This document shows, in pieces, positions 3,520-49,516 of a stretch of DNA of 64,000 nt. Every line of letters begins with the position of its first letter. Positions within the stretch are counted from its first letter, which is position 1. Under the pieces are notes generated by a model. The model was not told the origin of the DNA. It made no database searches and worked only from the letters and a program-made list of their open reading frames with translations. Position numbers and translations under genes: made by a program. The stretch is taken from the NCBI GenBank assembly GCA_011375175.1, contig DRME01000072.1, positions 1,782-65,781 on the forward strand, read 5' to 3'. The stretch is from Deltaproteobacteria bacterium. Lineage in GTDB: Bacteria > Desulfobacterota > GWC2-55-46 > DRME01.

Positions 3520-3700
3520 CGCCGTGGTGGGGAGGTGGGATGGTGTGCCTGAGTCTTTGAAGGGGGCGTCGTATGCCCGCGGCGGTTGCCTCGGGGAGGC
3601 CGTACCGGGGTTCGGGCCGCAAAGGCGTAAAGATCCCGCCTGGCGCGGGCCGAACCCCGGTACGGCCGAAGAACCGAGGCACGGACGCCTCAATCGGGGG
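3520..3700. repeat. Second partial copy of the same repeat family (ccgtaccggggttcgggccgcaaaggcgtaaagatcccgcctggcgcgggccgaaccccggtacggcc module)
   Basis: Shares the conserved cgggccgcaaaggcgtaaaaatcccgcctggcgcgggccgaa core and flanking ttgaaggggg with copy 1 and the other copies. Confidence 0.7.
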
Positions 3701-3773
3701 AGGGCCGCTCCAGCGAGGCGTTTTTTTGTGCCCGCGGCAGGCGGGGCATCCGTATCGAGTTGGCAGGTGGAAT

Positions 3774-5199: not shown

Positions 5200-7335
5200 A
5201 TGAGACGATCTCCCCTGGCAAAGCTCCTTGTGTCGCTGCCCTTGGCGGCGCTGTGGCTGTGGCCCCTTTCGGGCCGGGCCATGGCCGACGTCTACGCCCA
5301 GGCGGACCTCAACTACCAGAAGTCCAGGACCCGCAGCGCGACCCTCGACACCGAGCAGGTCCGCCTGGTCCAGGGCTACACCCTCGGCTTCAGCCGGGAC
5401 CTGACAAGGACCATAAGGCTCGCCGCCGACGTGCGGCTCACCGTCTCGGATGTGGACGGCGACAAGAGCGAGAGCCTCTTCCCGCAGCTCACCCTCGACT
5501 TCAGGCCGCCGAGCTTCTACTACTTCACCATGGGGTTCAGCAGGACCGAGACGGCTCCGTCCGAGGGGGACCGCCTCTCCACGTCGATCCTCAACGCCTC
5601 GCTCGTGCTCCCCTTCGAGAAGTGGCCCTCCGTCTCGCTCACCTACAACCGGTCGACCATGGAGGACTTCGCCGTCCCCAAGAAGACCGACTCCGTCTCG
5701 AGCATCCTCGGCGCCACGGCCGACTACAACACCACGCTCCTCGACACCGACGTGGCCCTGAGCTACTCCTTCAACAACACCGTCACCGAGGACAGGGTCT
5801 CGGACGTGGAGACCGAGTCGCCGACACACAACGTGACGGCCAACCTGGCGCGCTCGTTCTTCAGGAAGGCGCTCTGGGTGAGGGGCTACGCCGGCTATTA
5901 CACCCAGGAGACCAAGAGCACGAGCATCGGCACGCCCACGAGGTTCGAAGAGACGGCGAGCCCCGACTTCGGCTTCTACGTCCCCTTTGACGACACGCCC
6001 GCAGTGACGACGCTCGTCGACACCGGCGTCGTCACCGAGCTCACCGACAAGAACACGTCGAGCTCCGCCGGCATCGACCTCGATCAGCCCTACAGGAGCA
6101 TCGGTCTGAAGTTCACGCTGCCCCAGACGATCCACAAGCTCTACTACTACATCACCACCACCGACTACACCAACTTCCAGAACGTCTTCAGGAACTACGG
6201 CTGGTACGTCTACTGGAGCAACGACGGCACCAACTGGAAGGCGGTCACGGGCCTGACGATAAATTACGACTCGGCCTTCAAGCGCCTGGTCTTCAACTTC
6301 GTCGAGACGAGCGCCAAGTACTTCAAGGTCGTCAACACCCAGGTGCCGCTCGTCTCGCAGACCGTGTCGGCCACCGAGATCGAGGCCCTGAGATATATCC
6401 TCACGACGCCGAAGGAGACGATCACCTTCGGCACGGACAGGGACTTCGGCGGCTTCAGCCTCGCCTTCTCCCCGCGTTCGTGGTTCAACATCCGCTATGA
6501 CCTGTCGTTCGAACACTTCAGGCAGGACTCGAACGACCTTGAGAACACGTCGGTCACCCACGCCGTGAACTCAAGCCTCGTCGTCTCGCCGCGCTACCTC
6601 GTCATACAGTCGGGCCTGTCGCGCAACATCCTCGATTCCTCCCAGCGGCTCGCGGGCACCACAACCGCCACCTCCCTCGAGACGGAGAGCTCCAACTACA
6701 CGCTCACCCTCAGCTCCAACCCCCTCGACACCCTGAGCTCGAGCCTCACCTTCGGCCGCTTCGACTCCAAGGAGGACGGCGTAATGATATCGACAAACCG
6801 CAACGCCAACCTGGCCGCCAACATGGTCCTCTACTCCGGCATAGACCTCACTCTGACCTCGACGGTCACGAACATAGAGGAGTTCCGCTCCGACCAGACC
6901 ACCGATTCCGTCTCCCATCTCTACAACCTGCGGCTCACTCCCTGGGAGACGGTGACGGTCATCTTCAACGGCGGCCTCATCTCCAGCAGCGTGCACTCCA
7001 AGTCCGGCACCAGGGACTCGGACCTGAACTCTCTGGAGATGATGCTCTCCTACACGCCGACGCGCAAGCTCTACCTCTCCATGGTATGGACCATGGAGCC
7101 CACGGATGCGAAGATCGTCACGCTGGCGTGGCTGCCGACCGCCGCCTTCCAGCTCAACATGCGCTACGGCCTGACCGATACCACAACGAACGCGGGCCTG
7201 GACCTCAGCTGGAGCCCCATACGCAAGCTCTCCGTCTCGGTGGGCTACAACAGGGCGGAGACGGAGGATGTGAGCAGGAGCGTCGTCACCAAGGTGGACT
7301 CCTTTTACGCCAGGTTCTCGGCCCGCTTCGAATAG
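5200..7335 (+). CDS. Large (711 aa) outer-membrane beta-barrel protein of unknown function; candidate porin component
   Basis: Signal peptide MRRSPLAKLLVSLPLAALWLWPLSGRAMA. Amphipathic beta-strand pattern throughout (alternating hydrophobic residues rich in T/S/Y/N/D) and C-terminal strand ...VDSFYARFSARFE. No cysteines or CxxCH. The ATG is 1 nt after the upstream lipoprotein stop (translational coupling). Confidence 0.6.
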   Translation: MRRSPLAKLLVSLPLAALWLWPLSGRAMADVYAQADLNYQKSRTRSATLDTEQVRLVQGYTLGFSRDLTRTIRLAADVRLTVSDVDGDKSESLFPQLTLDFRPPSFYYFTMGFSRTETAPSEGDRLSTSILNASLVLPFEKWPSVSLTYNRSTMEDFAVPKKTDSVSSILGATADYNTTLLDTDVALSYSFNNTVTEDRVSDVETESPTHNVTANLARSFFRKALWVRGYAGYYTQETKSTSIGTPTRFEETASPDFGFYVPFDDTPAVTTLVDTGVVTELTDKNTSSSAGIDLDQPYRSIGLKFTLPQTIHKLYYYITTTDYTNFQNVFRNYGWYVYWSNDGTNWKAVTGLTINYDSAFKRLVFNFVETSAKYFKVVNTQVPLVSQTVSATEIEALRYILTTPKETITFGTDRDFGGFSLAFSPRSWFNIRYDLSFEHFRQDSNDLENTSVTHAVNSSLVVSPRYLVIQSGLSRNILDSSQRLAGTTTATSLETESSNYTLTLSSNPLDTLSSSLTFGRFDSKEDGVMISTNRNANLAANMVLYSGIDLTLTSTVTNIEEFRSDQTTDSVSHLYNLRLTPWETVTVIFNGGLISSSVHSKSGTRDSDLNSLEMMLSYTPTRKLYLSMVWTMEPTDAKIVTLAWLPTAAFQLNMRYGLTDTTTNAGLDLSWSPIRKLSVSVGYNRAETEDVSRSVVTKVDSFYARFSARFE

Positions 7336-7596: not shown

Positions 7597-8184
7597 ATGT
7601 ATAATTTACTGAGAAGACACATCGTTTGCGGTCTTGTGCTTGCGGCGCTGCTGGCAGGGGGTTGCGCGCCCACATCGCTCATATACATAAGCCCTTCGGC
7701 CAACTTCTCCTACATCAAGAAGGTGGCCGTGCTGCCCTTCAACAACCTGAGCGAGGACCGTTACGCCGGAGAGCGGGTGCGCAGCATCGTCACCGTCGAC
7801 CTCATGAGCCGCCAGGTCTTCGAGGTCATGGAGCAGGGCGAGGTCTCCAAGGTCCTGAGCATCATCTTCAGGGAAGAGGGCTTCGAAGAGGGGAGGGCGG
7901 TGCAGGTCGACAAGGAGACGCTCAACCTCATAGAGCAGCGTCTCGGCGTGCAGGCCGTCATCCTCGGAAGCGTCGACGAGTACTCGGGAGGACGCTACGG
8001 CGGCAACACGGTCGTCTCCATCTCGCTGAGGATGCTCGACACGAGCTCGGGGATCATCCTCTGGCAGGTGAGCGTAACGGAGCTGGGCGGCAGCATATGG
8101 CGCAAGCTCATCGGCCTGGAGGACATAGACAAGAGCGTCCTTACCCAGCGGGCCGTGAAGAGGGCACTGGACACGCTGGTCTGA
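7597..8184 (+). CDS. Lipoprotein with TolB-N/LpoB/CsgG-like domain (paralog 1 of 3)
   Basis: ATG 7597 with SD gagggga upstream. MYNLLRRHIVCGLVLAALLAGGC lipobox. Core KKVAVLPFNNLSEDRYAGERVRSIVTVDLMS...VQAVILGSVDEYSGG...ISLRMLDTSSGIILWQ. Paralogous to the N-terminus of 8346..10745 and to 12574..13143. Confidence 0.65.
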   Translation: MYNLLRRHIVCGLVLAALLAGGCAPTSLIYISPSANFSYIKKVAVLPFNNLSEDRYAGERVRSIVTVDLMSRQVFEVMEQGEVSKVLSIIFREEGFEEGRAVQVDKETLNLIEQRLGVQAVILGSVDEYSGGRYGGNTVVSISLRMLDTSSGIILWQVSVTELGGSIWRKLIGLEDIDKSVLTQRAVKRALDTLV

Positions 8185-8345: not shown

Positions 8346-10745
8346 ATGAAAGGCATCCTCCAAATAGCTGTCGGTTTGCCTGTGACCCGTGAAGGTTCCC
8401 CGCCCGGCCGCCTGCCGCGCAGTCTCGCGGCGACACTGGTGGCCGCAGCGGTCCTTCTCTTCACGGCGGCGGACCTGTCCGCCCCGCCGAGCGCATGGGC
8501 GTCGGTGTCGGCCCGTCACGGCGACGAGGTTTCGTCGCAGAGAGTCGAGATCGACAGCATCGCCATACTCCCCTTCGAGAACCTCACCGACTACCCCGGC
8601 GCTTCGAAGCTCGTGGCGGACATGGTCGCTCAGGAGATCGGGCGCAGGGGCTGGCGCGTGGTCTCCGGCGCCAGGCTCGTCGACGAGTACCTGGCCAAGA
8701 GACGCATCCGCTACACCGGCGCCATCACGAGGACCAGCGTGCGCGAGATGCGCAAGATCTTCGGCATCGACGCCGTGCTGCTCGGATCGATAGACCTCTT
8801 TTCCGCAGAGGGGCGCGACTCGGCGGTGAGCATCAACATGAGGCTCGTCAACACCGTCGACGGCTCCATCATGTGGGCCGATAACCTCGCCTACGCCGGG
8901 CTCGACTTCCAGGGCATACTCGGCCTCGGGACGATCACCTCGCCGGAAACACTCTCGGAGAGGATCGTGCACCGCCTCGTCGCCGGTCTGCCCGACAGCT
9001 ACGCCGTCGAGCTCTCGGAGCTGAGTCCCTACGAGATAGAGAAGATATACCTGAACCCCAAGGTGGCCAAGGGGGGGCAGCCCATCGACCTGCGCGTGAG
9101 GTTTCTGAGCCTCAAGGGCGAGCTGCCCGCGGCGGTCACGGCCGTCATCGACGGCCGCCAGACCGAGCTGCGCCGCTCTCGCGGCGGCTACTACGACGCC
9201 GAGATACCGGCCCCCCGGCGGGAGGGGCTCTATCCGGTGACCATAATCGCCCGCCCCAGGGACTCCCATAAGGCCTTCGTCTTCGACGCCGCCGCCCAGG
9301 TGAGCGTGGACACAACTCCGCCCGACGTGGACGTCTCCCTCTCCAGGACGATCTTCGCCCCCAGAAGGCGCGGCTACGTCATCTTCACGCCCAGGCTCAA
9401 CAACTTCGACATCGTCGACGAATGGAAGATGGAGATACTCGACGCCGACGGCCTCGTCATCAGAAACGACAGGGGCTTCGGCAGTCTCCCCAAGGGGCTC
9501 GTCTGGAAGGGCGAGACCGACAAGAGGCGCATGGTCGACGACGGCACCTACACCTACAGGTTCATCATCAAGGACCCGGCGGGCAACACGAGCACCGTCG
9601 ACGGCAAGCTCCAGGTCAAGAACAAGCCGCCCGACATCAAGGTCGACGTCGACAAGGTGAGGGGGCCCGTCAGGGCGAAGGACAAGCTCATATTCGGCTT
9701 CAACTACGAGGGGCGCGAGAGGGTCAGGTCCTGGCGGCTCACCATAAACGACAAGGACGGCCGGGTGATCGACATCATCGACGGCGAGGGCCCCCTGCCC
9801 GAGCGGCTCGACTATCCCCTCAAGGCCGGGCTCGACGTGGAGAGGATGACCTGCTCCGTATCGGTCGTCGACAGCGACGGCAACGTCACAAAGCTCTCCA
9901 ACGTGTGGATAGACCTCGACAGAGGCGAAGAAGAGGGCGGGCTCATCTTCTCCTTCAGGTACGACCGCAGCGAGGAGATAAGCGCCTGGAGACTCGCCAT
10001 ACTCGACGCCTCGGGCGCCGAAATCGACGTCATCGACGGCGAGGGCCCCCTGCCCGAGCGCCTCGAATACCCCCTGAAGGAGGGGGTGGACGCAAGCGGG
10101 CTCTCCTTCGTGGTGACGGCCGTCGACAAGGTCGGCAACCCCATGAGGCTCACCAACATCAAGGTTGAGGACCGGGTCTCCGACAAGCTCATCTTCTCGT
10201 TCAACTACGACACGAGCGAGCCCATAGAGTCGTGGCGGATATCCATACTCGGCGAGGACGGCGAGGTCCTCGACGTCATCGACGGCGAGGGGCCCCTGCC
10301 CCGGCAAATCGAGTACCCCGTGGCTCCGGGCGTTGACGCGACGAACCTCGCCTATTCGGTGACGGCCACAGACAGGGCCGGCAACCCCTTCAAGCTCGAC
10401 AAGGTCAAGGTCGACGTGGAGGAGCTGCGCAAGTTCGTCAGGGACAAGCTCATCTTCTCCTTCGACTACGACCCGCAGGAGAAGATAGAGCGCTGGCAGA
10501 TCGCCATCCAGGACCTCGACGGCCGGATACTCGACATAATAGACGGAAAAGGAGCGCTTCCATCGCGGGTCGAGTACCCCGTGGGCCGGGACTACGACCT
10601 CAGCAAGATGGCCTTTGTCGTGACGGCCACCGACAAGGCCGGCAATCCCTTCAAGTATTCCAAGGCGCTGCCCACGATCCTCTCACGCAAGCGACCCTTT
10701 GCCGAACTGCGCGGCGACGGCGGTTTCATGATGAAGGATTTCTGA
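8346..10745 (+). CDS. Large lipoprotein: N-terminal TolB-N/LpoB-like domain (paralog 2) followed by 5 tandem FlgD-Ig-like (about 80 aa) repeats
   Basis: IDSIAILPFENLTDYPGASKLVADMVAQEIGRRGWRVV...AVLLGSIDLFSAEG...INMRLVNTVDGSIMWA. Then repeats of KLIFSFNYD...W(R/Q)(L/I)xIxDxDGxxIDxIDGEGPLPxRxEYPxxxGxD...V(T/S)AxDKAGNPxKL, four clear copies plus one degenerate copy containing DGTYTYRFIIKDPAGN. Confidence 0.65.
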   Translation: MKGILQIAVGLPVTREGSPPGRLPRSLAATLVAAAVLLFTAADLSAPPSAWASVSARHGDEVSSQRVEIDSIAILPFENLTDYPGASKLVADMVAQEIGRRGWRVVSGARLVDEYLAKRRIRYTGAITRTSVREMRKIFGIDAVLLGSIDLFSAEGRDSAVSINMRLVNTVDGSIMWADNLAYAGLDFQGILGLGTITSPETLSERIVHRLVAGLPDSYAVELSELSPYEIEKIYLNPKVAKGGQPIDLRVRFLSLKGELPAAVTAVIDGRQTELRRSRGGYYDAEIPAPRREGLYPVTIIARPRDSHKAFVFDAAAQVSVDTTPPDVDVSLSRTIFAPRRRGYVIFTPRLNNFDIVDEWKMEILDADGLVIRNDRGFGSLPKGLVWKGETDKRRMVDDGTYTYRFIIKDPAGNTSTVDGKLQVKNKPPDIKVDVDKVRGPVRAKDKLIFGFNYEGRERVRSWRLTINDKDGRVIDIIDGEGPLPERLDYPLKAGLDVERMTCSVSVVDSDGNVTKLSNVWIDLDRGEEEGGLIFSFRYDRSEEISAWRLAILDASGAEIDVIDGEGPLPERLEYPLKEGVDASGLSFVVTAVDKVGNPMRLTNIKVEDRVSDKLIFSFNYDTSEPIESWRISILGEDGEVLDVIDGEGPLPRQIEYPVAPGVDATNLAYSVTATDRAGNPFKLDKVKVDVEELRKFVRDKLIFSFDYDPQEKIERWQIAIQDLDGRILDIIDGKGALPSRVEYPVGRDYDLSKMAFVVTATDKAGNPFKYSKALPTILSRKRPFAELRGDGGFMMKDF

Positions 10746-10749
10746 TTAG

Positions 10750-11964
10750 ATGAAAAGAAGAGCGTCGAAGTTCACTTTCAAGGTTCTTCCCTTCACCGTC
10801 ATCCTCTCCATCTTTGCCATGTCACCAGTGATAAGCGGCGACGGGCTGGCGCAGCCCAGGGGCGGCGACTGCCGCCGCTGCCATGCCGGTCCCGAAGCGC
10901 GCAAGCGCGGTCTCGTCGACATCTACGGCAGGATCGCCTCGTACCGCTTCCCCCATACGCCGGTCATCCAGGGCAACTGCACGATCTGCCACCGCGTCAG
11001 CACCTCTCCGTCGAGACGCTTCGGCGCCGCGGCGGGCGGGACGAAGACGATCAAGGGACCCGGCGGGCTGAGAAGACGCTACATACCCGTGGCCGCCGAC
11101 AAGGCCGGCTCGACCTACAGGGTGGACCTCACCATCGAGGACGAGCGCGGCCGCGTCATCGGTAAGGCCGGCTTCGACCTCGACCCCCGGTCCGTGAGCA
11201 GCTCGCTTAAGGACGACGGCCGGGAGCCCAGGGCGACGGACGTCAAAGTGGTGGGGGTGAAGCAGGCCGTCTTCATCGAGTCGGTGATCGACTGGAAGAC
11301 CGACAAGGCCGCGACCTCGTACATCGAGTACGGCCCCCGCGACGCCGTGGTCCTGGAGAGATCGCCCGCGCCGCAGGTCTACTCCAAGGAGCACAGGGCC
11401 GTCCTCAAGGGCCTCAAGGCCGAGGTCTACCGCTTCCGCGTCGTCTCCACCGACATCTTCGGCAACAGGGGCGTCTCCAAGGAGTACATCCTCGACGCCA
11501 GAAAGCCCAGGCGCCTGCGGGAGAAGAGAAACCCCGGCGGCGGGTTGGAGAAGCCCTCGCTTCGAGCGGAAGACTTCGTCAAGGTCCCGGCAACGGGCCT
11601 GATCCACCTGCTCGTCAGGACCAGGAGACCGTCGCGGGCCGTCGTGCGCGTCTCGGAGGCGGGCGCCCCGGCCGCGGGCCCGGGAGCCGCTGCCGGAGGA
11701 CACGGCGCGACGGGGAGCAGGAGCCGATACGTCCAGATCGACGCCTGCCTCAAGTGCCACTCCGACGGCGTATCGCACCCCGTGGCCGTAAGAAGCGACG
11801 GCAGAAAGACGCGCATCCCGCCGAACCTGCCGACCATCGAGCACGGCCTCCTGACGTGTGTAACCTGCCACTATCCTCACGGCGGCGACGCGAGGCACTT
11901 TTCGAGGCTCGACAAGAACAGGGACCTCTGCGTAGAATGCCACATCGGCGAGCCTTTTATGTGA
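10750..11964 (+). CDS. Secreted multiheme c-type cytochrome (5 CxxCH)
   Basis: Signal peptide MKRRASKFTFKVLPFTVILSIFAMSPVISG. Heme motifs CRRCH, CTICH, CLKCH, CVTCH, CVECH. The central region is beta-rich (Ig/FN3-like). Confidence 0.75.
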   Translation: MKRRASKFTFKVLPFTVILSIFAMSPVISGDGLAQPRGGDCRRCHAGPEARKRGLVDIYGRIASYRFPHTPVIQGNCTICHRVSTSPSRRFGAAAGGTKTIKGPGGLRRRYIPVAADKAGSTYRVDLTIEDERGRVIGKAGFDLDPRSVSSSLKDDGREPRATDVKVVGVKQAVFIESVIDWKTDKAATSYIEYGPRDAVVLERSPAPQVYSKEHRAVLKGLKAEVYRFRVVSTDIFGNRGVSKEYILDARKPRRLREKRNPGGGLEKPSLRAEDFVKVPATGLIHLLVRTRRPSRAVVRVSEAGAPAAGPGAAAGGHGATGSRSRYVQIDACLKCHSDGVSHPVAVRSDGRKTRIPPNLPTIEHGLLTCVTCHYPHGGDARHFSRLDKNRDLCVECHIGEPFM

Positions 11965-12013: not shown

Positions 12014-12577
12014 ATGGAAGACAGGGTTAAAGACAGAAGGCGCATGTTGAACTTCAGCATAAAGCGTGCCATGCAACTGAGGATCTTCGCCAGGATAATG
12101 ATCATAGTGCTCTGCTCCGTGGCCGCCACATCCATCGTCTTCTATCTCTACAGCTACCAGGAGATATCGGGCTCCTACAGGCAGTTCCACGTGCAGGCCA
12201 GGAACTTCCTCGACTACCTCCTGCCGGTCATCGGCATATCGCTTGTGCTCGGCGTCGCGGCGGCCGCGGTGCTGACGCTCTTTTTCCCGCGCAACATAGC
12301 GGGACCGGTCTACAGGCTGGAAAAGGACATAAAGGAGAGGCTGGCCAGGGGGGACCTGACCGTCAGGTTCAGACTCCGCGAGGGCGACGAACTCACCGAT
12401 CTCGTGACGGCCCTCAACGAGGTGGTCGACAACTTCAGGGAGAGGCTCGCCGAGGTGAAGTCGGCGGCGAGGGAACTGGAGGGGCTGCGCGCCGGAGGCG
12501 GCGGAGCGGAGACTGACACCAGGCTCGCCGACGTGGAGAGCCGCCTGAGGGAGACACTGAAAGAATTCAAGCTATGA
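12014..12577 (+). CDS. Small membrane protein with two TM helices and a HAMP-like coiled-coil domain
   Basis: IFARIMIIVLCSVAATSIVFYLY and LLPVIGISLVLGVAAAAVLTLFF helices, followed by NIAGPVYRLEKDIKERLARGDLTVRFRLREGDELTDLVTALNEVVDNF (HAMP signature). The start could alternatively be the ATG near 12044. Confidence 0.55.
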   Translation: MEDRVKDRRRMLNFSIKRAMQLRIFARIMIIVLCSVAATSIVFYLYSYQEISGSYRQFHVQARNFLDYLLPVIGISLVLGVAAAAVLTLFFPRNIAGPVYRLEKDIKERLARGDLTVRFRLREGDELTDLVTALNEVVDNFRERLAEVKSAARELEGLRAGGGGAETDTRLADVESRLRETLKEFKL

Positions 12578-13484: not shown

Positions 13485-15038
13485 ATGGTCACGGATAGAA
13501 GGCGTCCGCCGGGGCTCTTCGACGGCATACCGGCGGACGGGAACTTTCAGGCGGCCTCCGCCGTCCGGTCCGCCGCATCAAGGGAGATCGTGAACAGCTT
13601 CGCACTCTTTGCAAGGTTTCTTGTCGTCCTGACGGTCCTTCTGCTTCCGGGCCGCTCTTTCGGGTTCTGGCCCTTTTCCTCGCCCCGGGAGCCCTACCTC
13701 GCCAAGGTGGGCGAGAAGGTCATAACGACCGGGGAGTTCGTCGAGGCCGTAAACAAGCTCCATACGTCTAACCGCGTCGGCAAGGCCCTGGCCGAAAGCC
13801 ACGACAAATCCTTCACAAAACAGAACTACCGCGCCTTCCTCGACGAGATGATAGACAAAAAGCTCATCATCCTCGACAGCGAGAGTCTCGGTCTTGACGA
13901 GGGGGCGCTCTTCAGAAGCAGGTACGACACCTTCCGGCTCAACCTCTTTCTCGAAAGGCTCCGCCAGGAAGAGGTGCTCGACAAGGTGACCGTCACCGAC
14001 GACGAGGTCAAGGCCCGTTTCTTCGAACGGCTCCGCAAGGCCGAAGAGGAGCGCAGGAAGAAGGCCGAGGAGGAGGGGGAGGAAGAAAAGGAGCAGCCCG
14101 AGGAGACCAAGACCCCGGAAGAGAGGTTCGAGGCCCTCCCGGCGGTGGAGAAGGGCAACATCTGGCGCGAGATTTACAGGGAGAAGGTTTCGGCCAGGGA
14201 GAAGGAGTACTTCGAGGCCGTCAAGTCCAAGGCCCAGGTGGTCGTCTACGAAGAGAACCTCGAGGATATCTCCCTCGACGACCCGGACCTGGGCGAGAGG
14301 GTCGTGGCCGAGGTGGACGGCGACCCAATCTACGCCGTGGAGCTCGTAAACCGTGACAGCGTGCCCGGCCCGGAGCAGATGCGCCGCCGCCTCGACGCGC
14401 TCATACTCCACCGCGCCCTCGACCACGAGGCCCTCTCAAGGGGCTACGAGGAGGACGAAGAGGTCCGCAAAAAGCTTGCCGCCTACAGGGAAAAGCTCCT
14501 CGTCGACATCTTCAAGCGCGAGATCATACGCCCCCTCGTGGTCATCACCGACGAGGAGGTGAAGAAGTTCTACGAGGAGAACAAGCAGCGCTACCGCAAG
14601 CCCGATGAGGTGGACTTCAGGATCATCATCGTCGAGACCGAGGACGAGGCCCTCTCGCTCCTCGAAGAGCTGCGCAAGGGGGCCGACTTCGCCTATCTCG
14701 CCAAGAAGCGCTCCATAGACTCCTCTGCCGAGAAGGGCGGGCTCATGACGTCGGTGCCGGTCAACGTCTTTGCGCGGGAGATATACACCCTCTTCTACAG
14801 GTCCCACAAGGGCGATATCCTCGGTCCATTCACGCTCAACGGCAAGTACGCCATAATAAAGCTGCTGGAGATGAGCAAGGGCGAGTACGTGCCCGTTGAA
14901 AAGGTCAGGTCTTCCATCGTGAAGCGCCTGGGCAGGGAGAAGTTCGACGAGCAGCTCAACGCCTATGTGGCGCGTCTGCGAGAGCACGTCCCCATCGAGA
15001 TAAACGAGGACGAACTCAAGCGGATAAGCGGTGAGTGA
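13485..15038 (+). CDS. SurA/PpiD-like periplasmic chaperone with parvulin-type PPIase domain
   Basis: N-terminal SurA-like helical region (LAKVGEKVITTGEFVEAVNKL...) and a PPIC-type rotamase domain (DEVDFRIIIVETEDEALSLLEELRKGADFAYLAKKRSIDSSAEKGGLMTSVP...GDILGPFTLNGKYAIIKLLE). The start is uncertain; a signal-like segment FLVVLTVLLLPGRSFG lies a little downstream of 13485. Confidence 0.65.
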   Translation: MVTDRRRPPGLFDGIPADGNFQAASAVRSAASREIVNSFALFARFLVVLTVLLLPGRSFGFWPFSSPREPYLAKVGEKVITTGEFVEAVNKLHTSNRVGKALAESHDKSFTKQNYRAFLDEMIDKKLIILDSESLGLDEGALFRSRYDTFRLNLFLERLRQEEVLDKVTVTDDEVKARFFERLRKAEEERRKKAEEEGEEEKEQPEETKTPEERFEALPAVEKGNIWREIYREKVSAREKEYFEAVKSKAQVVVYEENLEDISLDDPDLGERVVAEVDGDPIYAVELVNRDSVPGPEQMRRRLDALILHRALDHEALSRGYEEDEEVRKKLAAYREKLLVDIFKREIIRPLVVITDEEVKKFYEENKQRYRKPDEVDFRIIIVETEDEALSLLEELRKGADFAYLAKKRSIDSSAEKGGLMTSVPVNVFAREIYTLFYRSHKGDILGPFTLNGKYAIIKLLEMSKGEYVPVEKVRSSIVKRLGREKFDEQLNAYVARLREHVPIEINEDELKRISGE

Positions 15039-17016
15039 GGAGGGAGAGTTGAGGATCTACAGGGTCTTGAGTCTTTTGCTCCTTGCCGTTGCGGTCGGCC
15101 TTGCCGGCGGGTGCGCGCCTCAGCCCAAAAAGGCCTTCAGGAAGCAGTGCGTCGACTGCCATCAGGCATCGCTCGACAAGTACAAGGCCGGAACCCTGCA
15201 CGCCCCGGTGGCGGAGAACAGGTGCGAGGAGTGCCACAAGCCCCACGGTCTTCTCGGCGGCCTGAGCCTGCGCTCCGACGGCGCGCCGCTGTGCTACCAG
15301 TGCCACGAGGGGCAGAAAAAGACGCTGGAGAAGAAGAGCGTCCACCGGCCCTTCGGGGACGGCAAGTGCCTCTTCTGTCACGACTCGCATTCGTCATACA
15401 GGGCGCCCGGCAGCAGGGGGCTTGTCAGCGCCGCGGGCAACGACCTCTGTTACCAGTGCCACGACAGGGACTCCTACAGCGGAGGCAAGACGGTCCACGG
15501 CGCGGTTGAGAAGGGTTGCATGAGCTGCCACGACCCCCACGCCTCGGACCTTCCCTTCGGACTCAGGGCCGAGGGCGACAGACTGTGCCTGGACTGCCAT
15601 GACCCCGGGGCCTCGGCCTTCCGCAGCGGCCACTCCGGTTACGACGTCGAGGGCACGGCCTGCCTGGCCTGTCACGAGCCCCATTCGACCGACAAGGACC
15701 GGCTCGTGAGGGCCTACGTCCACGAGCCTTTCGCAAGGCGTGCCTGCGCCGACTGCCACCGGGGACCGGACTCCAGCCCCCCCCTTGCCCTCAAGGTCGG
15801 CGGCGAGCGGCTATGCTACGAGTGCCACGACGAGCAGAGGGCCGAGTTCAACAGGACCCACAGCCACGAGCCCGTGGCCGGGGGGCGCTGCACGACCTGT
15901 CACGACCCCCATGTCTCCGACTACGAGAGCATCCTCTCAAGGCCCCAGAAAGAGCTCTGCTACGGCTGCCACACCGACTCGGCGGCCCGTCACGACAGGA
16001 AGTTCGTCCACGGCGTGGTGGAGGAGGGGAAGTGCTCGGCCTGCCACCTGCCCCACGGCTCGGACAACAGGATGATCCTCAAGGCCACGGGCGCGGCCCT
16101 CTGCTACGAGTGCCACTCCAGGGACGGCTTTGCCGACGCCGTGACGCACGCCCCCATACGCGAGGGCGACTGCCTCAACTGCCACGACCCCCACGCCTCG
16201 GACGAGCCGTCCCAGCTTACCGCGGCGCTTGGTCCGCTCTGCTACGGCTGCCACAGCGCCGAGAAGGAGCGCTTCACCAAGGTCTCCATGCACCCCAAGG
16301 TGAGGGAAGGGGCCTGCACGGCCTGCCACTCGCCCCACGCCTCTGCGAGGGAGGGGCTCCTCAAGAGCGGGCGCCGGGAGCTGTGCTTCACGTGTCATGA
16401 GAGCTACGCAAAGCTTCGGGACATGGCGGGAGAGCACCCCGTGGTGAGCCGCGGCGAGTGCCTCAGCTGTCACGACGCCCACGGCAGCGTGAACGCCATG
16501 CAGCTTCTGGCCGTGGACAGCTCGCTGTGCTACAAGTGCCACAAAGAGACGAAGGCCGCCTTCGACAGTGCGCCGACGAGGCACAGGCCCATATCGCAGG
16601 GCAGGTGCCTGGTCTGCCACATGCCCCACGGCAGCAAGATCGAGGGCTCGCTGCCCAGGCCGCTCGACGCGCTCTGCTACTCCTGTCACGACGGCCTCCA
16701 GGCAAGGCTCAAGGACATATCGCTCACCAGCCACAAGCCCGTCTCCGAGGGGCGGTGCGACAGTTGCCACGACCACCACGTCGGCGACAACGACAACCTC
16801 CTCGTCGCCACGGGCGCGGCCCTGTGCGTGGAGTGCCACGGCGAGCGCATGAAGACACCCGGGTACGCCGCGGCCCACGGAGGCATCCCGACCGAGGGGG
16901 TCGAGTGCCTCGGCTGTCACGAGCCCCACGCGGCCGAGGACGCCAAGCTGCTCCACAAGGTGAAGCATGAACCCTTCCGCAAGAGACTCTGCGAAAAGTG
17001 CCACCAGAAGCTTTGA
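15031..17016 (+). CDS. Giant multiheme c-type cytochrome, about 26 CxxCH motifs, of the doubled-CxxCH (paired CxxCH...CxxCH) type
   Basis: 661 aa. Signal peptide/lipobox-like LLLAVAVGLAGGC. CxxCH sites counted: CVDCH CEECH CYQCH CLFCH CYQCH CMSCH CLDCH CLACH CADCH CYECH CTTCH CYGCH CSACH CYECH CLNCH CYGCH CTACH CFTCH CLSCH CYKCH CLVCH CYSCH CDSCH CVECH CLGCH CEKCH. They form a regular repeat CxxCH-x(~10-15)-CxxCHxxH. The antisense ORFs 15016..15390 and 15937..17004 are artefacts. Confidence 0.85.
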   Translation: MSEEGELRIYRVLSLLLLAVAVGLAGGCAPQPKKAFRKQCVDCHQASLDKYKAGTLHAPVAENRCEECHKPHGLLGGLSLRSDGAPLCYQCHEGQKKTLEKKSVHRPFGDGKCLFCHDSHSSYRAPGSRGLVSAAGNDLCYQCHDRDSYSGGKTVHGAVEKGCMSCHDPHASDLPFGLRAEGDRLCLDCHDPGASAFRSGHSGYDVEGTACLACHEPHSTDKDRLVRAYVHEPFARRACADCHRGPDSSPPLALKVGGERLCYECHDEQRAEFNRTHSHEPVAGGRCTTCHDPHVSDYESILSRPQKELCYGCHTDSAARHDRKFVHGVVEEGKCSACHLPHGSDNRMILKATGAALCYECHSRDGFADAVTHAPIREGDCLNCHDPHASDEPSQLTAALGPLCYGCHSAEKERFTKVSMHPKVREGACTACHSPHASAREGLLKSGRRELCFTCHESYAKLRDMAGEHPVVSRGECLSCHDAHGSVNAMQLLAVDSSLCYKCHKETKAAFDSAPTRHRPISQGRCLVCHMPHGSKIEGSLPRPLDALCYSCHDGLQARLKDISLTSHKPVSEGRCDSCHDHHVGDNDNLLVATGAALCVECHGERMKTPGYAAAHGGIPTEGVECLGCHEPHAAEDAKLLHKVKHEPFRKRLCEKCHQKL

Positions 17017-17039
17017 GGGCGCAGTCGATGGTTAAGAGG

Positions 17040-18299
17040 ATGGTATACGCAAAGCGACGGAGACGGCCCGCGGCGGGCGCCCTAACGGCCCTCGCCGGCG
17101 CCGCCGCCCTGCTCGCCGCCTCGGTCCTCGGGCCGGCCGCGGCGGAGGCGGGCGAGGTGAGTCACAGGGTGACAAAGCAGCTCTGTGCCGAGTGCCACGA
17201 CACGTCACGCGCCCTGGCGGCCAAGCCCTACCAGCACAGGCCCGTCGAGCTCGGCAAGTGCACGGCCTGCCACAACCCCCATGCCTCCAGGCACGCCGGG
17301 CTGCTCAGCGAGGAGGGCGGCAGGCTCTGCTTCAACTGCCACGAGCAGGACGAGGGCTTCAAGGGCGCGGTGCTCCACGCCCCCTACGCCTCGGGCCGCT
17401 GTCTCGAGTGTCACGAGGCCCACGTCTCCGACAACGCCGGACTCCTGAAGGTGGCCGGCGGCAAGGGCTGCTACCTCTGCCACAAGCGCGATGAGATAGT
17501 GGCGGGGGCCAACGTCCACCCGGAGGTGAAAAAGGACCACTGTACGGCGTGCCACAACCCGCACTCTTCCGACAACGTGGGACTTCTCACCGCCGACAGG
17601 AACTCGGTGTGCGCCCGCTGCCACTACAAGGACGGCGCGCCCGTCATCCCATGCCCCTACGAGGTGGCCGGCACCGACTGCCTCGGCTGTCACAGCCCCC
17701 ACTCGTCGGACAGGAGAGCCATCCTCAGGGCCTCGCTCCACGACCCCTTCGAGAAGAAGGACTGCGCCGCCTGCCACAGCGGAGCCGACGGCGGCGAGGT
17801 CAGGCCCGGCATAGCGGTGTGCCTGAAGTGCCACGAAAAGGTCATGGAAGGCTTCAACAAGCTGGCGAGCCACCTCATGCCGGCTCCCGGCGGCGGCAAC
17901 GCCTGCTCCAACTGCCACAACCCCCACGGCTCGGACCGCATGGCGCTGCTCAGGGACAAGGAGTCGCGCATCTGCTATAGATGTCACAGCGACGCCAGGC
18001 AGTTCGTCGCCGACAGCCTCTACGTCCATCCCGACCTCGAAAAGTGCACCGAGTGCCACGCCTCGCACGGCTCCAACGAGCCGTTCCTCATGGCCCGCGG
18101 GGCCGAGACCTGCTCGTCGTCGCGGTGCCACGCCACACAGGGCACTTTCACCCATCCCATAGGAGAGGACGTCATCGATCCCCGCTCGGGAGGCGCCATG
18201 GACTGCAACACCTGCCACAACCCCATGGGCTCGCCGGAGGAGACGATACTGCGCGACGAGAAGGACAGGGGGCTGTGCATACAGTGTCACCAGGTTTAA
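17040..18299 (+). CDS. Multiheme c-type cytochrome (about 15 CxxCH)
   Basis: SD aagagg before ATG 17040; alternative ATGs at 17028 and 16998. Signal peptide ALTALAGAAALLAASVLGPAAAEA. Motifs CAECH CTACH CFNCH CLECH CYLCH CTACH CARCH CLGCH CAACH CLKCH CSNCH CYRCH CTECH CNTCH CIQCH. Confidence 0.8.
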   Translation: MVYAKRRRRPAAGALTALAGAAALLAASVLGPAAAEAGEVSHRVTKQLCAECHDTSRALAAKPYQHRPVELGKCTACHNPHASRHAGLLSEEGGRLCFNCHEQDEGFKGAVLHAPYASGRCLECHEAHVSDNAGLLKVAGGKGCYLCHKRDEIVAGANVHPEVKKDHCTACHNPHSSDNVGLLTADRNSVCARCHYKDGAPVIPCPYEVAGTDCLGCHSPHSSDRRAILRASLHDPFEKKDCAACHSGADGGEVRPGIAVCLKCHEKVMEGFNKLASHLMPAPGGGNACSNCHNPHGSDRMALLRDKESRICYRCHSDARQFVADSLYVHPDLEKCTECHASHGSNEPFLMARGAETCSSSRCHATQGTFTHPIGEDVIDPRSGGAMDCNTCHNPMGSPEETILRDEKDRGLCIQCHQV

Positions 18300-18318
18300 G
18301 AGAGAGGGAGTGAGTTTC

Positions 18319-19305
18319 ATGGCTTCTGGGATTTACAGGTCGGCGCCGGCGGGAGTGAGCGAGCGCGCCCCGGCTGCTTCGGTGCGGGCTGTGCTGGGCC
18401 GGAGCCTCTTCGCCGCGGCCGCCGTTGCGGTCTCCCTTGTTGCGCCGCAGGCCGTATCGTCGCAGGACGAGGGGACCGAGATGCTGGCCGTCATCAGCGG
18501 CAACGAGATGATAGGGCGGCTCAAGAACCCCTCGGCCCTCTTCTTCGACGAGGTGAAAAAGCGCATATACGTCGCCGACACGGGCAACAGGCGTCTCGTC
18601 TCCTTCGACAACGAGTACAAGTACCTGGCCGAGCTCTACCTCGAGGAATTCGACCTCCCTTCCGGCATCGTCAAGGACAGCGCCGGTCTCTTCTACGTGG
18701 TGGACAGCGGCAAGGCCGCCATCCTCAGGATAGACGTGCGCAACAACGTGGTCGAGCCCATCGAACCAAGCGGCGTGCCCGAGGCCGGAGAGCCCTTCAT
18801 CCCCGGCAGGATCGCCATCGACGGCAGCGACACACTCTACGTCGTCGACAAGCTCAACAAGAGGATACTGGCCTTGGACGGCGACGGCGTCTTCGTGGCC
18901 CAGTACACCGTGCCGGGCGACGAGAGGCTCACCGGTTTCGCCGACGTGAGGGTGGCCGAAAACGGCGAGGTCTACGCCATCGACACGCTCAGCGGCACCA
19001 TCTATATATTCGACGGCAGTGGCGAGGTGGTCAAGAGTTTTTCCAGGCGCGGCACGGGACGGGGCATGTTGCGCTTCCCCACGAGCATCGCCGTGGACCG
19101 CAACGGCCATATCTACGTCGCCGACCGCCACGGCGGCATGGTCCTCGTCTACGACCGCAGCGGCATATTCCTGCGCGCCATTTCAAGGCCCGGCTTCCGC
19201 GAGGGCGAGCTCTCCTACCCCTTCTACATCTACCTCGACGGGGAGGGCAGGCTCTATACGATAGACGTAACGAGGATACAGGTCTTCAAGGGCGAGAAGG
19301 GATGA
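18319..19305 (+). CDS. Secreted NHL-repeat six-bladed beta-propeller protein
   Basis: ATG 18319 with SD gggagtga. Signal peptide. Blades: RIYVADTGNRRLVSFD, LFYVVDSGKAAILRID, TLYVVDKLNKRILALD, EVYAIDTLSGTIYIFD, HIYVADRHGGMVLVYD, RLYTIDVTRIQVF. Confidence 0.75.
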   Translation: MASGIYRSAPAGVSERAPAASVRAVLGRSLFAAAAVAVSLVAPQAVSSQDEGTEMLAVISGNEMIGRLKNPSALFFDEVKKRIYVADTGNRRLVSFDNEYKYLAELYLEEFDLPSGIVKDSAGLFYVVDSGKAAILRIDVRNNVVEPIEPSGVPEAGEPFIPGRIAIDGSDTLYVVDKLNKRILALDGDGVFVAQYTVPGDERLTGFADVRVAENGEVYAIDTLSGTIYIFDGSGEVVKSFSRRGTGRGMLRFPTSIAVDRNGHIYVADRHGGMVLVYDRSGIFLRAISRPGFREGELSYPFYIYLDGEGRLYTIDVTRIQVFKGEKG

Positions 19306-19311
19306 CCCCCC

Positions 19312-20124
19312 ATGTCCCGCCCTCTCCTCACAACAGTGGTCCTCGCGGCCGCGCTCCTGCTCGTCGGCTGCGAGCCGCCGGTAAAAAGGGTTGACAACCC
19401 GGCGCTCCTCGAAGAGCATCCAGGCCTGGACACCGTGCCGGTCTACAGGAAGGGCTCCGTATCCTTCAGCACTGCCGAGGCCCTGAGGCTCGCCGAGCAG
19501 GACAGGAAGGCGGCGCTGGAGGAGCGTTTCAGGGGCGAGGAGACCTCGTCGCTGGAGATACCGGACCCCTGGATCCCGCCGGCCTACCGCAGCGCATCCT
19601 CGCTACCCAAGGCCCTGCGGGCCTTCCCCAAGGACAAGTTCGGCTATCCCGACTGGACGGCCTCGGTACAGGAGGGGATCATCATGCCCAGGGCGGGGCT
19701 TCTGAACAAGAAGGTCAAGGGCGAGTACCAGAGGGACTACTGGCAGTGGGCCGTCTCCTCGGACGTGATGCTCAAGCTCAGCGACAGCGGAGAGGTCAAG
19801 AAGGGCAAGGAGATAACCCTCGAGGACGTGGAGCGCGAGATAGAAGACGCGCCCTACGACCTGGACATAGTCTTCGAGATCAACGACCGGCTCATGGCCA
19901 ACGTCCTCTTCCCCCACAAAGTGCACTCCTACTGGCTGGGCTGCAAGGTCTGCCATCCCGGCATATTCGTCGCCAAGAAGGGTGCCAACGTCTTTACCAT
20001 GTACGACGTCTGGGAAGGCAAGTACTGCGGCCGCTGTCACGGCAAGGTGGCCTTTCAGCCCAAGGGGTTCGAGAACTGCCAGCGCTGCCACAAGGTCAAG
20101 AAGAAAACCATGGGCATAAAGTAG
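19312..20124 (+). CDS. Lipoprotein c-type cytochrome (3 CxxCH)
   Basis: MSRPLLTTVVLAAALLLVGC lipobox. The C-terminal domain has CKVCH, CGRCH, CQRCH. The stop is immediately followed by a MITE-like repeat. Confidence 0.7.
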   Translation: MSRPLLTTVVLAAALLLVGCEPPVKRVDNPALLEEHPGLDTVPVYRKGSVSFSTAEALRLAEQDRKAALEERFRGEETSSLEIPDPWIPPAYRSASSLPKALRAFPKDKFGYPDWTASVQEGIIMPRAGLLNKKVKGEYQRDYWQWAVSSDVMLKLSDSGEVKKGKEITLEDVEREIEDAPYDLDIVFEINDRLMANVLFPHKVHSYWLGCKVCHPGIFVAKKGANVFTMYDVWEGKYCGRCHGKVAFQPKGFENCQRCHKVKKKTMGIK

Positions 20125-37226: not shown

Positions 37227-37273
37227 AGACGACCGGTAGTCGGACGACGGTTCGACAAGGCTGAACTTCTGAA

Positions 37274-37307
37274 GGGGGGAGGGATTCACACTCCCCCCTT
37301 TTTTTGT
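37274..37307 (+). terminator. Rho-independent terminator after the OmcS-like gene
   Basis: gggggagggattcacactcccccc stem-loop followed by ttttttt. Confidence 0.6.
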
Positions 37308-37402
37308 GGCGGCCGCTGTCGCCGGCGGGAGGAGACCGGAGAGAAAGGTAACTCAGGGCTTCAACGGTCCGCCGCGACAGGGCCGGGAAACCGGGTGCGC
37401 AG

Positions 37403-38353: not shown

Positions 38354-38412
38354 GCGAAGCGTCCCCGCAGAGAGCTTCCTTGCGCCGGCGCCCACGGCGT
38401 GATGCGGCGTCC

Positions 38413-39318: not shown

Positions 39319-39422
39319 GTCCGGCGGTAGACGGCGAGAGCAACGCGGAAGTGTGCCAGTACCCCCGGCTCCCGGGCCGGCCGTGGCAGGGATAGGCCCA
39401 CACAGCCCCGAGAGGAAAGCGA

Positions 39423-49013: not shown

Positions 49014-49153
49014 CGATTCGGCGGCCGCGGCGAACCGGCAATGGCGTGGTCTCGGGAAGGTCCGCCGCCGTGTGCTCCACGTGGCGACGGCAAACCTGCC
49101 AGTTCCTCACATAAAAACGTCTAATCAACGAAGTATGATGTCTTCAAACGTCT

Positions 49154-49500: not shown

Positions 49501-49516
49501 GGGACCGGAGGATGGC

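What the first reader, a model, noticed from the sequence alone, without database searches (positions are those of the whole stretch)
15031..17016. 661-aa cytochrome with about 26 CxxCH sites in a regular doubled-CxxCH repeat
Heme-binding motifs occur about every 25 residues in a repeating CxxCH-x(10-15)-CxxCHxxH pattern across the whole protein, giving an exceptionally high heme density. This layout matches the doubled-CXXCH class of Geobacter-type cytochromes and implies a long linear heme wire. The adjacent gene carries a further 15 hemes. Each about 50-residue unit looks like a tandem duplication module. The repeat count may vary between strains.
Basis: seen in the sequence. Interest (0 to 1): 0.55.

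Follow-up and report, generated by a model that had tools for sequence, protein, structure and literature searches.

The report
26-heme lipoprotein cytochrome, MtrA-like wire
This gene encodes a real lipid-anchored protein carrying 26 iron-containing heme groups in a row, a member of an already described but functionally untested family that probably joins a neighbouring 16-heme protein and an outer-membrane barrel to carry electrons across the cell envelope.

Summary
The ORF at 15031-17016 has exactly 26 CxxCH motifs spaced 23-28 residues apart, matching 13 paired-CXXCH domains (PF09699/TIGR01905). The likelier start is TTG 15049, giving 655 aa.

It is not new as a kind. It is the 26-heme member of the conserved operon PPIase / 26-heme / 16-heme / six-bladed propeller described by Skennerton et al. 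2017 (Geobacter GSU2495/Gbem_1124; the Oet cluster of Murali et al. 2023), whose function is still untested. The window comes from a hydrothermal-vent Deltaproteobacteria MAG.

What I add:
- The lipobox Cys, all 26 motifs and about 26 distal His are invariant at ~35% identity.
- The repeats are ancient, and the heme number is fixed at 26 rather than variable.
- The closest solved structure is MtrA.
- A conserved upstream 711-aa protein models as a ~28-30-strand barrel whose best match is MtrB.
- The neighbour has 16 heme sites (15 CxxCH + 1 CX4CH), not 15.
- Widespread 42-heme proteins are colinear fusions of the 26- and 16-heme proteins, one of them in the same operon slot. This suggests the two dock end to end as a heme chain of roughly 36 nm.

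Function and topology remain inferred.

The parts
15049..17016 (+). F: 26-heme c-type cytochrome lipoprotein (655 aa from TTG 15049; 661 aa if the GTG at 15031 is used)
   Evidence: ORF. 26 CxxCH. PF09699 x13 and TIGR01905 x13. SD GGAGGG at 15039-44 followed by TTG. The public call is 655 aa.
15049..15114 (+). Lipoprotein signal peptide MRIYRVLSLLLLAVAVGLAGG-C; the lipobox Cys codon is at 15112-15114
   Evidence: Sequence. This Cys (C28 in 661-aa numbering) is invariant in 24 of 24 orthologs, and the orthologs show canonical lipoboxes.
15148..15759 (+). Module 1: hemes 1-9, four A-B pairs plus a cap heme, ending CHEPH...VHEPFARRACADCH
   Evidence: Unit dissection.
15814..17004 (+). Module 2: hemes 10-26, eight A-B pairs plus a cap heme, ending CHEPH...KHEPFRKRLCEKCH
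   Evidence: The junction with G is compared with the fused proteins.
17028..18299 (+). G: 16-heme cytochrome (15 CxxCH + CX4CH) with an ordinary Sec signal peptide and no lipobox; HHL40064.1
   Evidence: It aligns colinearly to the C-terminal 16 hemes of the 42-heme proteins.
13485..15038 (+). E: SurA-like PPIC-type peptidyl-prolyl isomerase, a core operon gene
   Evidence: Pfam Rotamase_2 and SurA_N. Conserved immediately upstream of the 26-heme gene in L001, L003-L007, L009 and L027.
18310..19305 (+). H: NHL-repeat six-bladed beta-propeller, a core operon gene
   Evidence: Pfam NHL and DUF5128 6-bladed propeller. Conserved downstream of the 16-heme gene.
19312..20124 (+). I: lipoprotein with a C-terminal c7-type triheme domain
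   Evidence: TIGR04257 at 66 bits, PF14522, and lipobox LLVGC.
5200..7335 (+). 711-aa outer-membrane barrel candidate with a central discoidin-like insert (about residues 257-402); HHL40056.1
   Evidence: No Pfam hit. Homologous to the ~700-aa gene in L001, L004, L005 and L027. AF2 pLDDT 84.5 with ~28-30 long strands. Best PDB fold match is MtrB, 6r2q_B. One homolog carries PF00754.
7597..8184 (+). GNA1162-like (DUF799) lipoprotein with lipobox LAGGCAP; conserved accessory gene
   Evidence: Pfam hit. Public call is 195 aa. Conserved in L001, L003-L005, L007 and L009.
8376..10745 (+). A: GNA1162-like N-terminal domain followed by Ig-like repeats (four ~85-aa repeats); conserved accessory gene, shorter in relatives
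10750..11964 (+). B: 5-heme cytochrome
12014..12577 (+). C: small membrane protein with a HAMP domain; also found next to the PPIase in L003
12574..13143 (+). D: LpoB/CsgG/TolB_N-like lipoprotein with lipobox SAGC; conserved accessory gene
3573..5198 (+). DUF4382 plus beta-propeller protein; conserved at the edge of the block

Best explanation
F is a lipid-anchored c-type cytochrome that binds 26 bis-His hemes. It is built from 13 ancient, diverged paired-CXXCH units arranged as a 9-heme and a 17-heme module, and it folds like an elongated MtrA.

It is the 26-heme component of the conserved operon PPIase / 26-heme / 16-heme / NHL propeller (GSU2495 family, Skennerton 2017, probably OetB of Murali 2023).

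Most likely it acts as a passive electron-conducting rod. Heme 26 at its C-terminus docks onto heme 1 of the 16-heme protein G, giving a continuous 42-heme chain. That chain works together with the MtrB-like ~28-30-strand barrel encoded upstream as a porin-cytochrome conduit linking the periplasmic redox pool to the cell exterior. The SurA-like PPIase and the lipoprotein set would help assembly.

Shown here: heme-site count and conservation, lipobox, family membership, synteny, MtrA-like and MtrB-like folds, and the existence of natural 26+16 fusions.

Inferred: the end-to-end docking, passage through the barrel, which protein faces outward, the direction of electron flow, and the length. The length is about 22 nm for F and about 36 nm for F+G, scaled from MtrA's 80 A per 10 hemes.
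For: - Motifs and families.
- Invariant lipobox Cys, 26 CxxCH and 25 invariant extra His, with one more candidate (H518) that is not invariant in the alignment, at ~35% identity.
- MtrA (6r2q_A) is the best solved relative by phmmer (E 6.5e-22), by profile (E 7e-32) and by Foldseek on an AF2 model with pLDDT 83.7 (E 8e-8, the only significant hit).
- A conserved gene block is present in Desulfobacterota, Acidobacteriota and a Betaproteobacteria MAG.
- The barrel candidate is modelled at pLDDT 84.5, and its best fold match is MtrB (6r2q_B) with the highest TM-scores.
- The 42-heme proteins are F (residues 12-660) plus mature G (residues 60-432), colinear, with a normal heme spacing across the junction. 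One fusion lies in the same PPIase-[42]-NHL slot.
- Literature: the operon is described in PMC5539420, the Oet conduit model in PMC10553843, and MtrA's 80 A chain inside a 26-strand MtrB in PMC7198977.
Against: - There are no experimental data for this family. [quoted passage not shown]
- Deletion of NHL-associated cytochrome clusters in D. ferrophilus, which are analogous but not shown to be orthologous, gave no Fe(III) oxide defect (PMC9769857).
- The barrel has no sequence-level match to MtrB/PioB, and its TM-scores to MtrB are modest (0.36-0.39).
- Model coordinates could not be inspected, so straightness and length are extrapolations.
- Some 42-heme genes, such as the Zixibacteria locus L026, lack the operon context.
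- A lipid anchor at the N-terminus together with G docking at the C-terminus is topologically awkward for a straight rod threaded through a barrel.
Confidence: 0.6

Rival explanations
1. F is a periplasm-confined relay or electron store (capacitor). F and G stay in the periplasm. F is tethered to the inner face of the outer membrane, and together they bridge or buffer electrons between inner-membrane quinol oxidoreductases and other outer-membrane conduits, without passing through the 711-aa barrel themselves.
For: - Skennerton et al. predicted all four core proteins to be periplasmic with no TM helices (PMC5539420).
- A periplasm-spanning or capacitor role has been proposed for the 21-27-heme PCC3 cytochromes (PMC10734462).
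- A scaled length of ~22-36 nm is of the order of a periplasm width (my scaling from PMC7198977).
- Some 42-heme genes occur without a nearby barrel.
Against: - The MtrB-like barrel is conserved in the same block in many phyla.
- The closest solved homolog, MtrA, works inside such a barrel (PMC7198977).
- The lipobox is invariant, which argues for a fixed membrane location.
Confidence: 0.25
2. F is a surface-displayed extracellular wire (the MtrC/OmcB role). Only G threads the barrel, while F is exported and lipid-anchored on the outer leaflet, extending contact to minerals, electrodes or partner cells.
For: - Murali et al. describe OetB as an extracellular lipoprotein cytochrome and OetA as periplasmic (PMC10553843).
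- F has the lipobox and G does not, in all orthologs seen.
- MtrC, OmcA and OmcB are lipoproteins (established knowledge).
Against: - The mapping OetB = 26-heme was not verified by sequence.
- F is MtrA-like rather than MtrC-like.
- In the fused 42-heme proteins one polypeptide would have to lie on both sides of the membrane, and most of them lack a lipobox.
Confidence: 0.3
3. F is a catalytic multiheme enzyme (a reductase or oxidase of a soluble substrate) rather than a wire.
For: Many multiheme cytochromes are enzymes, such as NrfA, HAO and MccA (established knowledge). Weak Foldseek hits to nitrite reductases appear.
Against: - 25 invariant non-motif His, plus one further candidate (H518), would give every heme a sixth ligand and leave no open coordination site.
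- There is no non-heme domain, and the protein is peptide-minimised at ~24-25 aa per heme.
- The nitrite-reductase hits are non-significant, with E >= 0.2.
Confidence: 0.03
4. The ORF or its heme count is an assembly or frameshift artefact.
For: It is a MAG contig from a metagenome, and the exact 661-aa sequence is not in the protein collection.
Against: - F is colinear with 23 orthologs, with every motif conserved.
- The same 26/16 split is found in 8 independent loci.
- The absence from the collection is explained by the 655-aa start call.
Confidence: 0.01

Closest known systems
26-heme cytochrome of the PPIase / 26-heme / 16-heme / six-bladed propeller operon (Skennerton et al. 2017, PMC5539420); G. 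sulfurreducens GSU2495 / G. bemidjiensis Gbem_1124 (PMC2996986; bioRxiv 10.1101/2025.11.06.686851)
   Same: Same four core genes in the same order, the same heme numbers (26 and 16), about 70 kDa, and a Desulfobacterota host.
   Different: It is only 35-40% identical to any relative retrieved. G uses a CX4CH at site 14. Orthology to GSU2495 itself rests on the literature descriptions, not on an alignment made here.
OetABI conduit (Murali et al. 2023, PMC10553843)
   Same: A periplasmic cytochrome plus a lipoprotein cytochrome plus an outer-membrane barrel in one cassette, derived from the Skennerton cluster. F has a lipobox, G does not, and a barrel is encoded upstream.
   Different: The correspondences OetB=F, OetA=G and OetI=711-aa protein were not verifiable from the text or the supplements. 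No OmcS or OmcX homologs were identified in this window.
MtrA/MtrB of MtrCAB (PDB 6R2Q; PMC7198977); DmsE/MtrA family TIGR03508
   Same: MtrA is the closest solved relative of F, and MtrB is the closest fold match of the barrel. Both have bis-His hemes in paired-CXXCH units.
   Different: F has 26 hemes against 10. F is a lipoprotein, which MtrA is not. The barrel has ~28-30 strands plus a discoidin-like insert, against 26 strands, and has no MtrB/PioB Pfam match. The TIGR03508 score arises from 7 partial matches. There is no MtrC homolog.
Uet complex of Tenderiales/Gallionella (bioRxiv 10.1101/2022.05.06.490989; PMC10734462)
   Same: The same parts list in kind: a PPIase, NHL propellers, a barrel, c7-type triheme cytochromes and a doubled-CXXCH multiheme cytochrome.
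   Different: The central Uet cytochrome has 11 hemes, and there is no 26/16 pair. Homology of the individual proteins was not tested here.
PCC3 periplasmic multiheme cytochromes (21-27 hemes) of Gallionellaceae (PMC10734462)
   Same: Long, mostly linear predicted cytochromes proposed to span the periplasm, paired with a barrel.
   Different: PCC3 heme numbers vary (21, 24 or 27, and 10-35 for the extracellular partner), whereas here the numbers are fixed at 26 and 16. PCC3 has no PPIase or NHL core. Homology was not tested here.
Geobacter c7-polymer 'nanowire' cytochromes (GSU1996 family, TIGR04257) and OmcS/OmcE/OmcZ filaments
   Same: High heme density and a proposed wire function.
   Different: F does not match TIGR04257. 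OmcS (6ef8) and 7tfs, which I believe is OmcE though the output labels it only 'Cytochrome c', match only marginally. F has a two-heme rather than a three-heme period, and nothing indicates polymerisation.

Membership tests
Paired/doubled CXXCH domain (PF09699, TIGR01905) | HMM match above the curated cutoff | tested here: met
   PF09699 scores 472 bits (cutoff 20.6) in 13 stretches. TIGR01905 scores 443 bits (cutoff 25.2) in 13 stretches.
Skennerton operon 26-heme cytochrome (GSU2495 type) | 26 heme-binding motifs | tested here: met
   26 CxxCH. All 26 are conserved in orthologs.
Skennerton operon 26-heme cytochrome (GSU2495 type) | Adjacent 16-heme cytochrome unrelated to HmcA | tested here: met
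   G has 15 CxxCH plus a CX4CH aligned to a conserved site. The HmcA model matches only at E 0.0075.
Skennerton operon 26-heme cytochrome (GSU2495 type) | Flanking peptidyl-prolyl isomerase and six-bladed beta-propeller | tested here: met
   E is a PPIC-type PPIase and H is an NHL / 6-bladed propeller. The same order is seen in 8 loci.
Skennerton operon 26-heme cytochrome (GSU2495 type) | Direct sequence orthology to GSU2495 / the SEEP-SRB1 proteins | not testable with these tools
   Those sequences could not be fetched, so the assignment rests on the papers' descriptions (PMC5539420, PMC2996986).
OetABI conduit | Lipoprotein cytochrome (OetB) plus non-lipoprotein periplasmic cytochrome (OetA) | tested here: met
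   F has an invariant lipobox Cys. G and 7 orthologs have plain signal peptides.
OetABI conduit | Outer-membrane beta-barrel (OetI) in the cassette | tested here: met
   The 711-aa protein models with ~28-30 long strands at pLDDT 84.5, best fold match MtrB, and it is conserved in synteny. Homology to the named OetI (OEU57520.1) was not tested.
DmsE/MtrA decaheme family (TIGR03508) | Ten hemes in a protein of ~300 aa | tested here: not met
   F has 26 hemes in 655 aa. The 427-bit score comes from 7 partial stretches.
DmsE/MtrA decaheme family (TIGR03508) | Partner barrel of the MtrB/PioB sequence family | tested here: not met
   The barrel has no Pfam family. It resembles MtrB only at the fold level.
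c7-type triheme polymer 'nanowire' cytochromes (TIGR04257, GSU1996 type) | Repeated c7 triheme domains | tested here: not met
   F has no TIGR04257 hit and a two-heme period. Only gene I carries that domain.
Filament-forming cytochromes (OmcS/OmcE/OmcZ) | Sequence or fold similarity to the solved filament subunits | tested here: not met
   OmcS matches at E 0.005 and 7tfs at E 1e-5, over short stretches only. Neither appears among the Foldseek hits.

The most novel reading that the evidence does not exclude
The 26-heme and 16-heme proteins are two halves of one fixed-length, 42-heme hard-wired conductor of roughly 36 nm. It threads an unusually large MtrB-like barrel and is long enough to bridge the outer membrane plus the whole periplasm, so no diffusible periplasmic carriers would be needed. 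The strict conservation of 26, 16 and 42 hemes across phyla would then reflect a molecular-ruler constraint set by envelope geometry. The fused 42-heme genes of Zixibacteria, Latescibacteria, Krumholzibacteria, Gemmatimonadota and Acidobacteria would extend this mechanism far beyond Desulfobacterota.
Probability: 0.3. Interest if true: 0.7.

Novelty: new member of a known kind. Interest (0 to 1): 0.42.

Why it matters
This operon has been implicated in direct electron transfer between methane-oxidising archaea and their sulfate-reducing partners, and it occurs in Geobacter, yet nobody knows what it does. Three things found here turn a vague 'large cytochrome' into a structural hypothesis that can be tested in the genetically tractable G. 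sulfurreducens (GSU2494/2495):
- The two cytochromes occur naturally fused in register.
- Their heme numbers are fixed.
- They are paired with an MtrB-like barrel.

The finding also flags a large, apparently undescribed set of 42-heme proteins in poorly studied phyla.

Tried and rejected
The single-protein scan worked but found no relative closer than 40% identity.
- The first homolog search did not return the window's own protein. The exact look-up of the 661-aa form failed because the public call is 655 aa.
- TRF found no tandem DNA repeats in F/G or in gene A. A recent repeat expansion is therefore rejected.
- Supplements and the preprint of Murali et al. did not state heme numbers for OetA and OetB, so that mapping is left open (one search was a malformed query).
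- Model coordinates are not exposed to scripts. Rod length, bending and heme-site spacing could not be measured and are scaled from MtrA.
- An NJ tree of the 26-heme regions gave about 3 fusion/fission changes, but at distances above 1 substitution per site and without support values. I do not rely on it (one search timed out).
- Considered and rejected: enzyme, c7-polymer, OmcS-like filament and HmcA (see the membership tests).


Full report
OBSERVATION.
- The ORF at 15031-17016 (+) exists.
- It contains exactly 26 CxxCH motifs at start-to-start spacings of 23-28 residues, with 53 Cys and 56 His. From its own Cys and His content fewer than one motif would be expected by chance.
- E's stop codon (15036-38) is followed immediately by GGAGGG, and a TTG lies at 15049. 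The public gene call for this contig is 655 aa. The protein most likely starts at 15049.
- The window is part of an 87-kb hydrothermal-vent metagenome contig assigned to a Deltaproteobacteria MAG (locus tags ENJ37_06090 to ENJ37_06130).

ANATOMY.
- Pfam PF09699 and TIGR01905 (paired CXXCH) each match 13 times.
- The unit is CxxCH-x(12-17)-H-x(5-8)-CxxCHxPH, about 46-53 aa long.
- The register is not uniform. Four A-B pairs are followed by a lone cap heme (heme 9), then eight A-B pairs by a second cap heme (heme 26). Both modules end with CHEPH...(V/K)HEPFxxRxCxxCH.
- In an alignment with 23 orthologs at about 35% identity, the invariant columns are the lipobox Cys, all 26 CxxCH motifs and 25 further His. 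One more candidate His is not invariant in the alignment. This fits a lipoprotein in which every heme is bis-His ligated, leaving no open catalytic site.

ARE THE REPEATS RECENT OR VARIABLE?
- TRF finds no tandem array. The DNA copies are only about 60-70% identical and are confined to the motif codons.
- Units within F are about 34% identical to each other. Each unit's best match in an ortholog is the unit at the same position in 126 of 247 cases, against about 8% by chance. The architecture therefore predates the divergence of the orthologs.
- Of four orthologs counted with 25 CxxCH, three have a CX3CH exactly at heme 20. So 23 of 24 keep 26 sites.
- All eight genomic loci with the split arrangement have 26.
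- In an exhaustive search of 1.84 billion representatives, every single-stretch full-length match has 26 sites.
- The idea that repeat number varies between strains is therefore not supported. True strain-level data are lacking, because the nearest relative is only 40% identical.
- Across the wider superfamily (17,569 representatives at E <= 1e-3), CxxCH counts run from 11 to 131 at 24-35 aa per heme. The heme density here is ordinary for the class.

WHAT IT RESEMBLES.
- The closest solved protein is MtrA, chain A of the Mtr complex 6R2Q. This holds by phmmer (E 6.5e-22), by profile search (E 7e-32) and by Foldseek on an AlphaFold2 model (mean pLDDT 83.7, pTM 0.61; E 8e-8, the only significant hit).
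- OcwA-type, MtrC and HmcA cytochromes follow far behind. OmcS and 7tfs (which I believe is OmcE) are marginal.
- NCBIfam's DmsE/MtrA decaheme model scores above its cutoff, but only through seven partial matches. F is therefore an elongated relative of MtrA, not a member of that family.

CONTEXT.
- F sits in a plus-strand block. In order it contains: a DUF4382-propeller protein, a 711-aa protein with no Pfam hit, a GNA1162-like lipoprotein, a GNA1162-like protein with Ig repeats (A), a 5-heme cytochrome (B), a HAMP membrane protein (C), an LpoB/CsgG-like lipoprotein (D), a SurA-like PPIase (E), F, G, an NHL propeller (H) and a c7 triheme lipoprotein (I).
- The same block recurs in loci from Desulfobacteraceae, Desulfobacterales, Geopsychrobacteraceae and Acidobacteriota, in unnamed metagenome contigs, and partly in a Betaproteobacteria MAG. 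It usually lacks B and sometimes C.
- G has 15 CxxCH plus CSSSRCH, which aligns to a CxxCH in seven orthologs. That gives 16 heme sites. G and its orthologs have ordinary signal peptides.
- The 711-aa protein is homologous to the ~700-aa gene at the same place in other loci. With an alignment of 17 homologs it models at pLDDT 84.5 as about 28-30 long antiparallel strands interrupted by a compact insert at about residues 257-402. One homolog carries the discoidin domain PF00754. Its best fold match, with the highest TM-scores, is MtrB (6r2q_B). TonB-dependent receptors and LptD follow.

LITERATURE.
- Skennerton et al. 2017 (PMC5539420) described exactly this core: a six-bladed propeller, a 16-heme and a 26-heme cytochrome, and a PPIase. 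They found it in SEEP-SRB1, Ca. Desulfofervidus, Desulfuromonadales, Geobacter, Anaeromyxobacter and Desulfurivibrio. They reported no known function and no expression during metal respiration.
- The Geobacter member is GSU2495 (= Gbem_1124; 26 motifs, ~70 kDa). It lies next to GSU2494 in the omcS/omcT region.
- Murali et al. 2023 (PMC10553843) renamed the conduit OetABI: a periplasmic cytochrome, a barrel and a lipoprotein cytochrome. Which cytochrome has which heme number is not stated in the text I could read.
- Related parts lists are known for Uet and PCC3. For PCC3 a periplasm-spanning role has been suggested.
- Deleting NHL-linked cytochrome clusters in D. ferrophilus did not affect Fe(III) oxide reduction.

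NEW OBSERVATION: 26 + 16 = 42.
- Most of the best database hits to F are ~1060-aa proteins with exactly 42 CxxCH. They come from Zixibacteria, Krumholzibacteria, Latescibacteria, Gemmatimonadota and others.
- F residues 12-660 align colinearly to their residues ~25-678. Mature G (residues 60-432) aligns to their residues ~685-1070.
- The heme 26-to-27 spacing across the junction (20-28 aa) is an ordinary repeat spacing. F's 3-aa tail plus G's 11-aa mature N-terminus roughly match the fused linker.
- One fused gene (P0001) sits in the same slot, PPIase-[42-heme]-NHL, with a ~724-aa barrel homolog nearby. Another follows a D-like lipoprotein in an Acidobacteriota MAG. A Zixibacteria example lacks this context.
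- A full-text search for '42 heme(s)' found no relevant paper.
- This Rosetta-stone pattern is the basis for proposing that F and G dock end to end.

MECHANISM.
- Scaling from MtrA (an 80 A chain for 10 hemes, threaded through the 26-strand MtrB; PMC7198977) gives a chain of about 22 nm for F, 13 nm for G and 36 nm for F+G, if the chain is straight.
- The best-supported reading is a porin-cytochrome conduit in which MtrA-like rods work with an MtrB-like barrel.
- Not determined: whether F is inside or outside the cell, which segment occupies the barrel, and the direction of electron flow.

VERDICT.
- The feature is real and the motif count is correct.
- It is a new, divergent member of a known but uncharacterised family.
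- The fixed heme numbers, the natural 26+16 fusions and the MtrB-like barrel with a discoidin insert are the points worth following up.

Noticed in passing
P0001-P0094 (proteins); loci L010, L026, L027: About 1060-aa proteins with exactly 42 CxxCH, from Zixibacteria, Krumholzibacteria, Latescibacteria, Gemmatimonadota and Acidobacteriota, are colinear fusions of the 26-heme and 16-heme proteins. A full-text search for '42 heme' found no relevant paper.
   Followed up: yes
window 5200-7335: A 711-aa protein with no Pfam match models as a ~28-30-strand barrel with a discoidin-like insert at about residues 257-402. Its best fold match is MtrB. It is conserved in the cytochrome block.
   Followed up: yes
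window 17028-18299 (G), near residues 362-368 and ~393-400 of the 423-aa form: G's 14th heme site is CX4CH (CSSSRCH). In the penultimate motif the usual CHxPH His is replaced by Met (CHNPMG) here and in L001, L003 and L004, while L007-L009 keep His. This may indicate a His/Met heme near the C-terminal end of the chain.
   Followed up: partly
window 35940-40601: A second, smaller cytochrome/NHL cluster: a 6-heme protein (35940-37226), an NHL propeller (37403-38353) and another 6-heme protein (39423-40601), followed by a TPR protein (40890-41651).
   Followed up: partly
window 8376-10745 (A): Protein A contains four ~85-aa repeats that look much more alike than F's units do (my impression from reading the sequence; similarity not measured), each with a ...LIFSF.YD...W.I.I.D..G..I..IDGEGPLP..IEYP... 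pattern. Its orthologs are only ~500 aa. Domain-number variation seems to occur in this neighbour rather than in F. TRF finds no DNA-level array.
   Followed up: partly
window 7597-8184 and 15049-15120: The GNA1162-like lipoprotein and F share the same lipobox context, LAGGCAP.
   Followed up: no
window about 49000-56000 and 62000-64000: GC drops from ~64% to 49-54%. The low-GC stretches hold a methyltransferase/APH-domain protein, a GNAT, a sulfatase and, at 62077-63573, a polysaccharide-synthesis protein. An exosortase EpsH gene (56167-57780) lies just after the first stretch, where GC is back to ~64%. This is possibly a horizontally acquired exopolysaccharide / PEP-CTERM island.
   Followed up: partly
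P0140, P0141, P0181: The same superfamily includes giant proteins of 3274-3949 aa with 120-131 CxxCH motifs.
   Followed up: partly
window 15049-17016; The window's own F protein was not returned by the word-seeded homolog search, although its contig is in the collection, and the record shows no precomputed Pfam hit for it. Highly repetitive heme proteins may be under-retrieved by that index.
   Followed up: partly
window 1354-2937 (-) and L001 19302-20804: A radical SAM enzyme lies at the edge of the block both here (with a Zn-ribbon HMPTM N-domain) and in L001 (with a B12-binding domain). ResB/CcsA cytochrome maturation genes are inside the block in L001 but not in this window.
   Followed up: no
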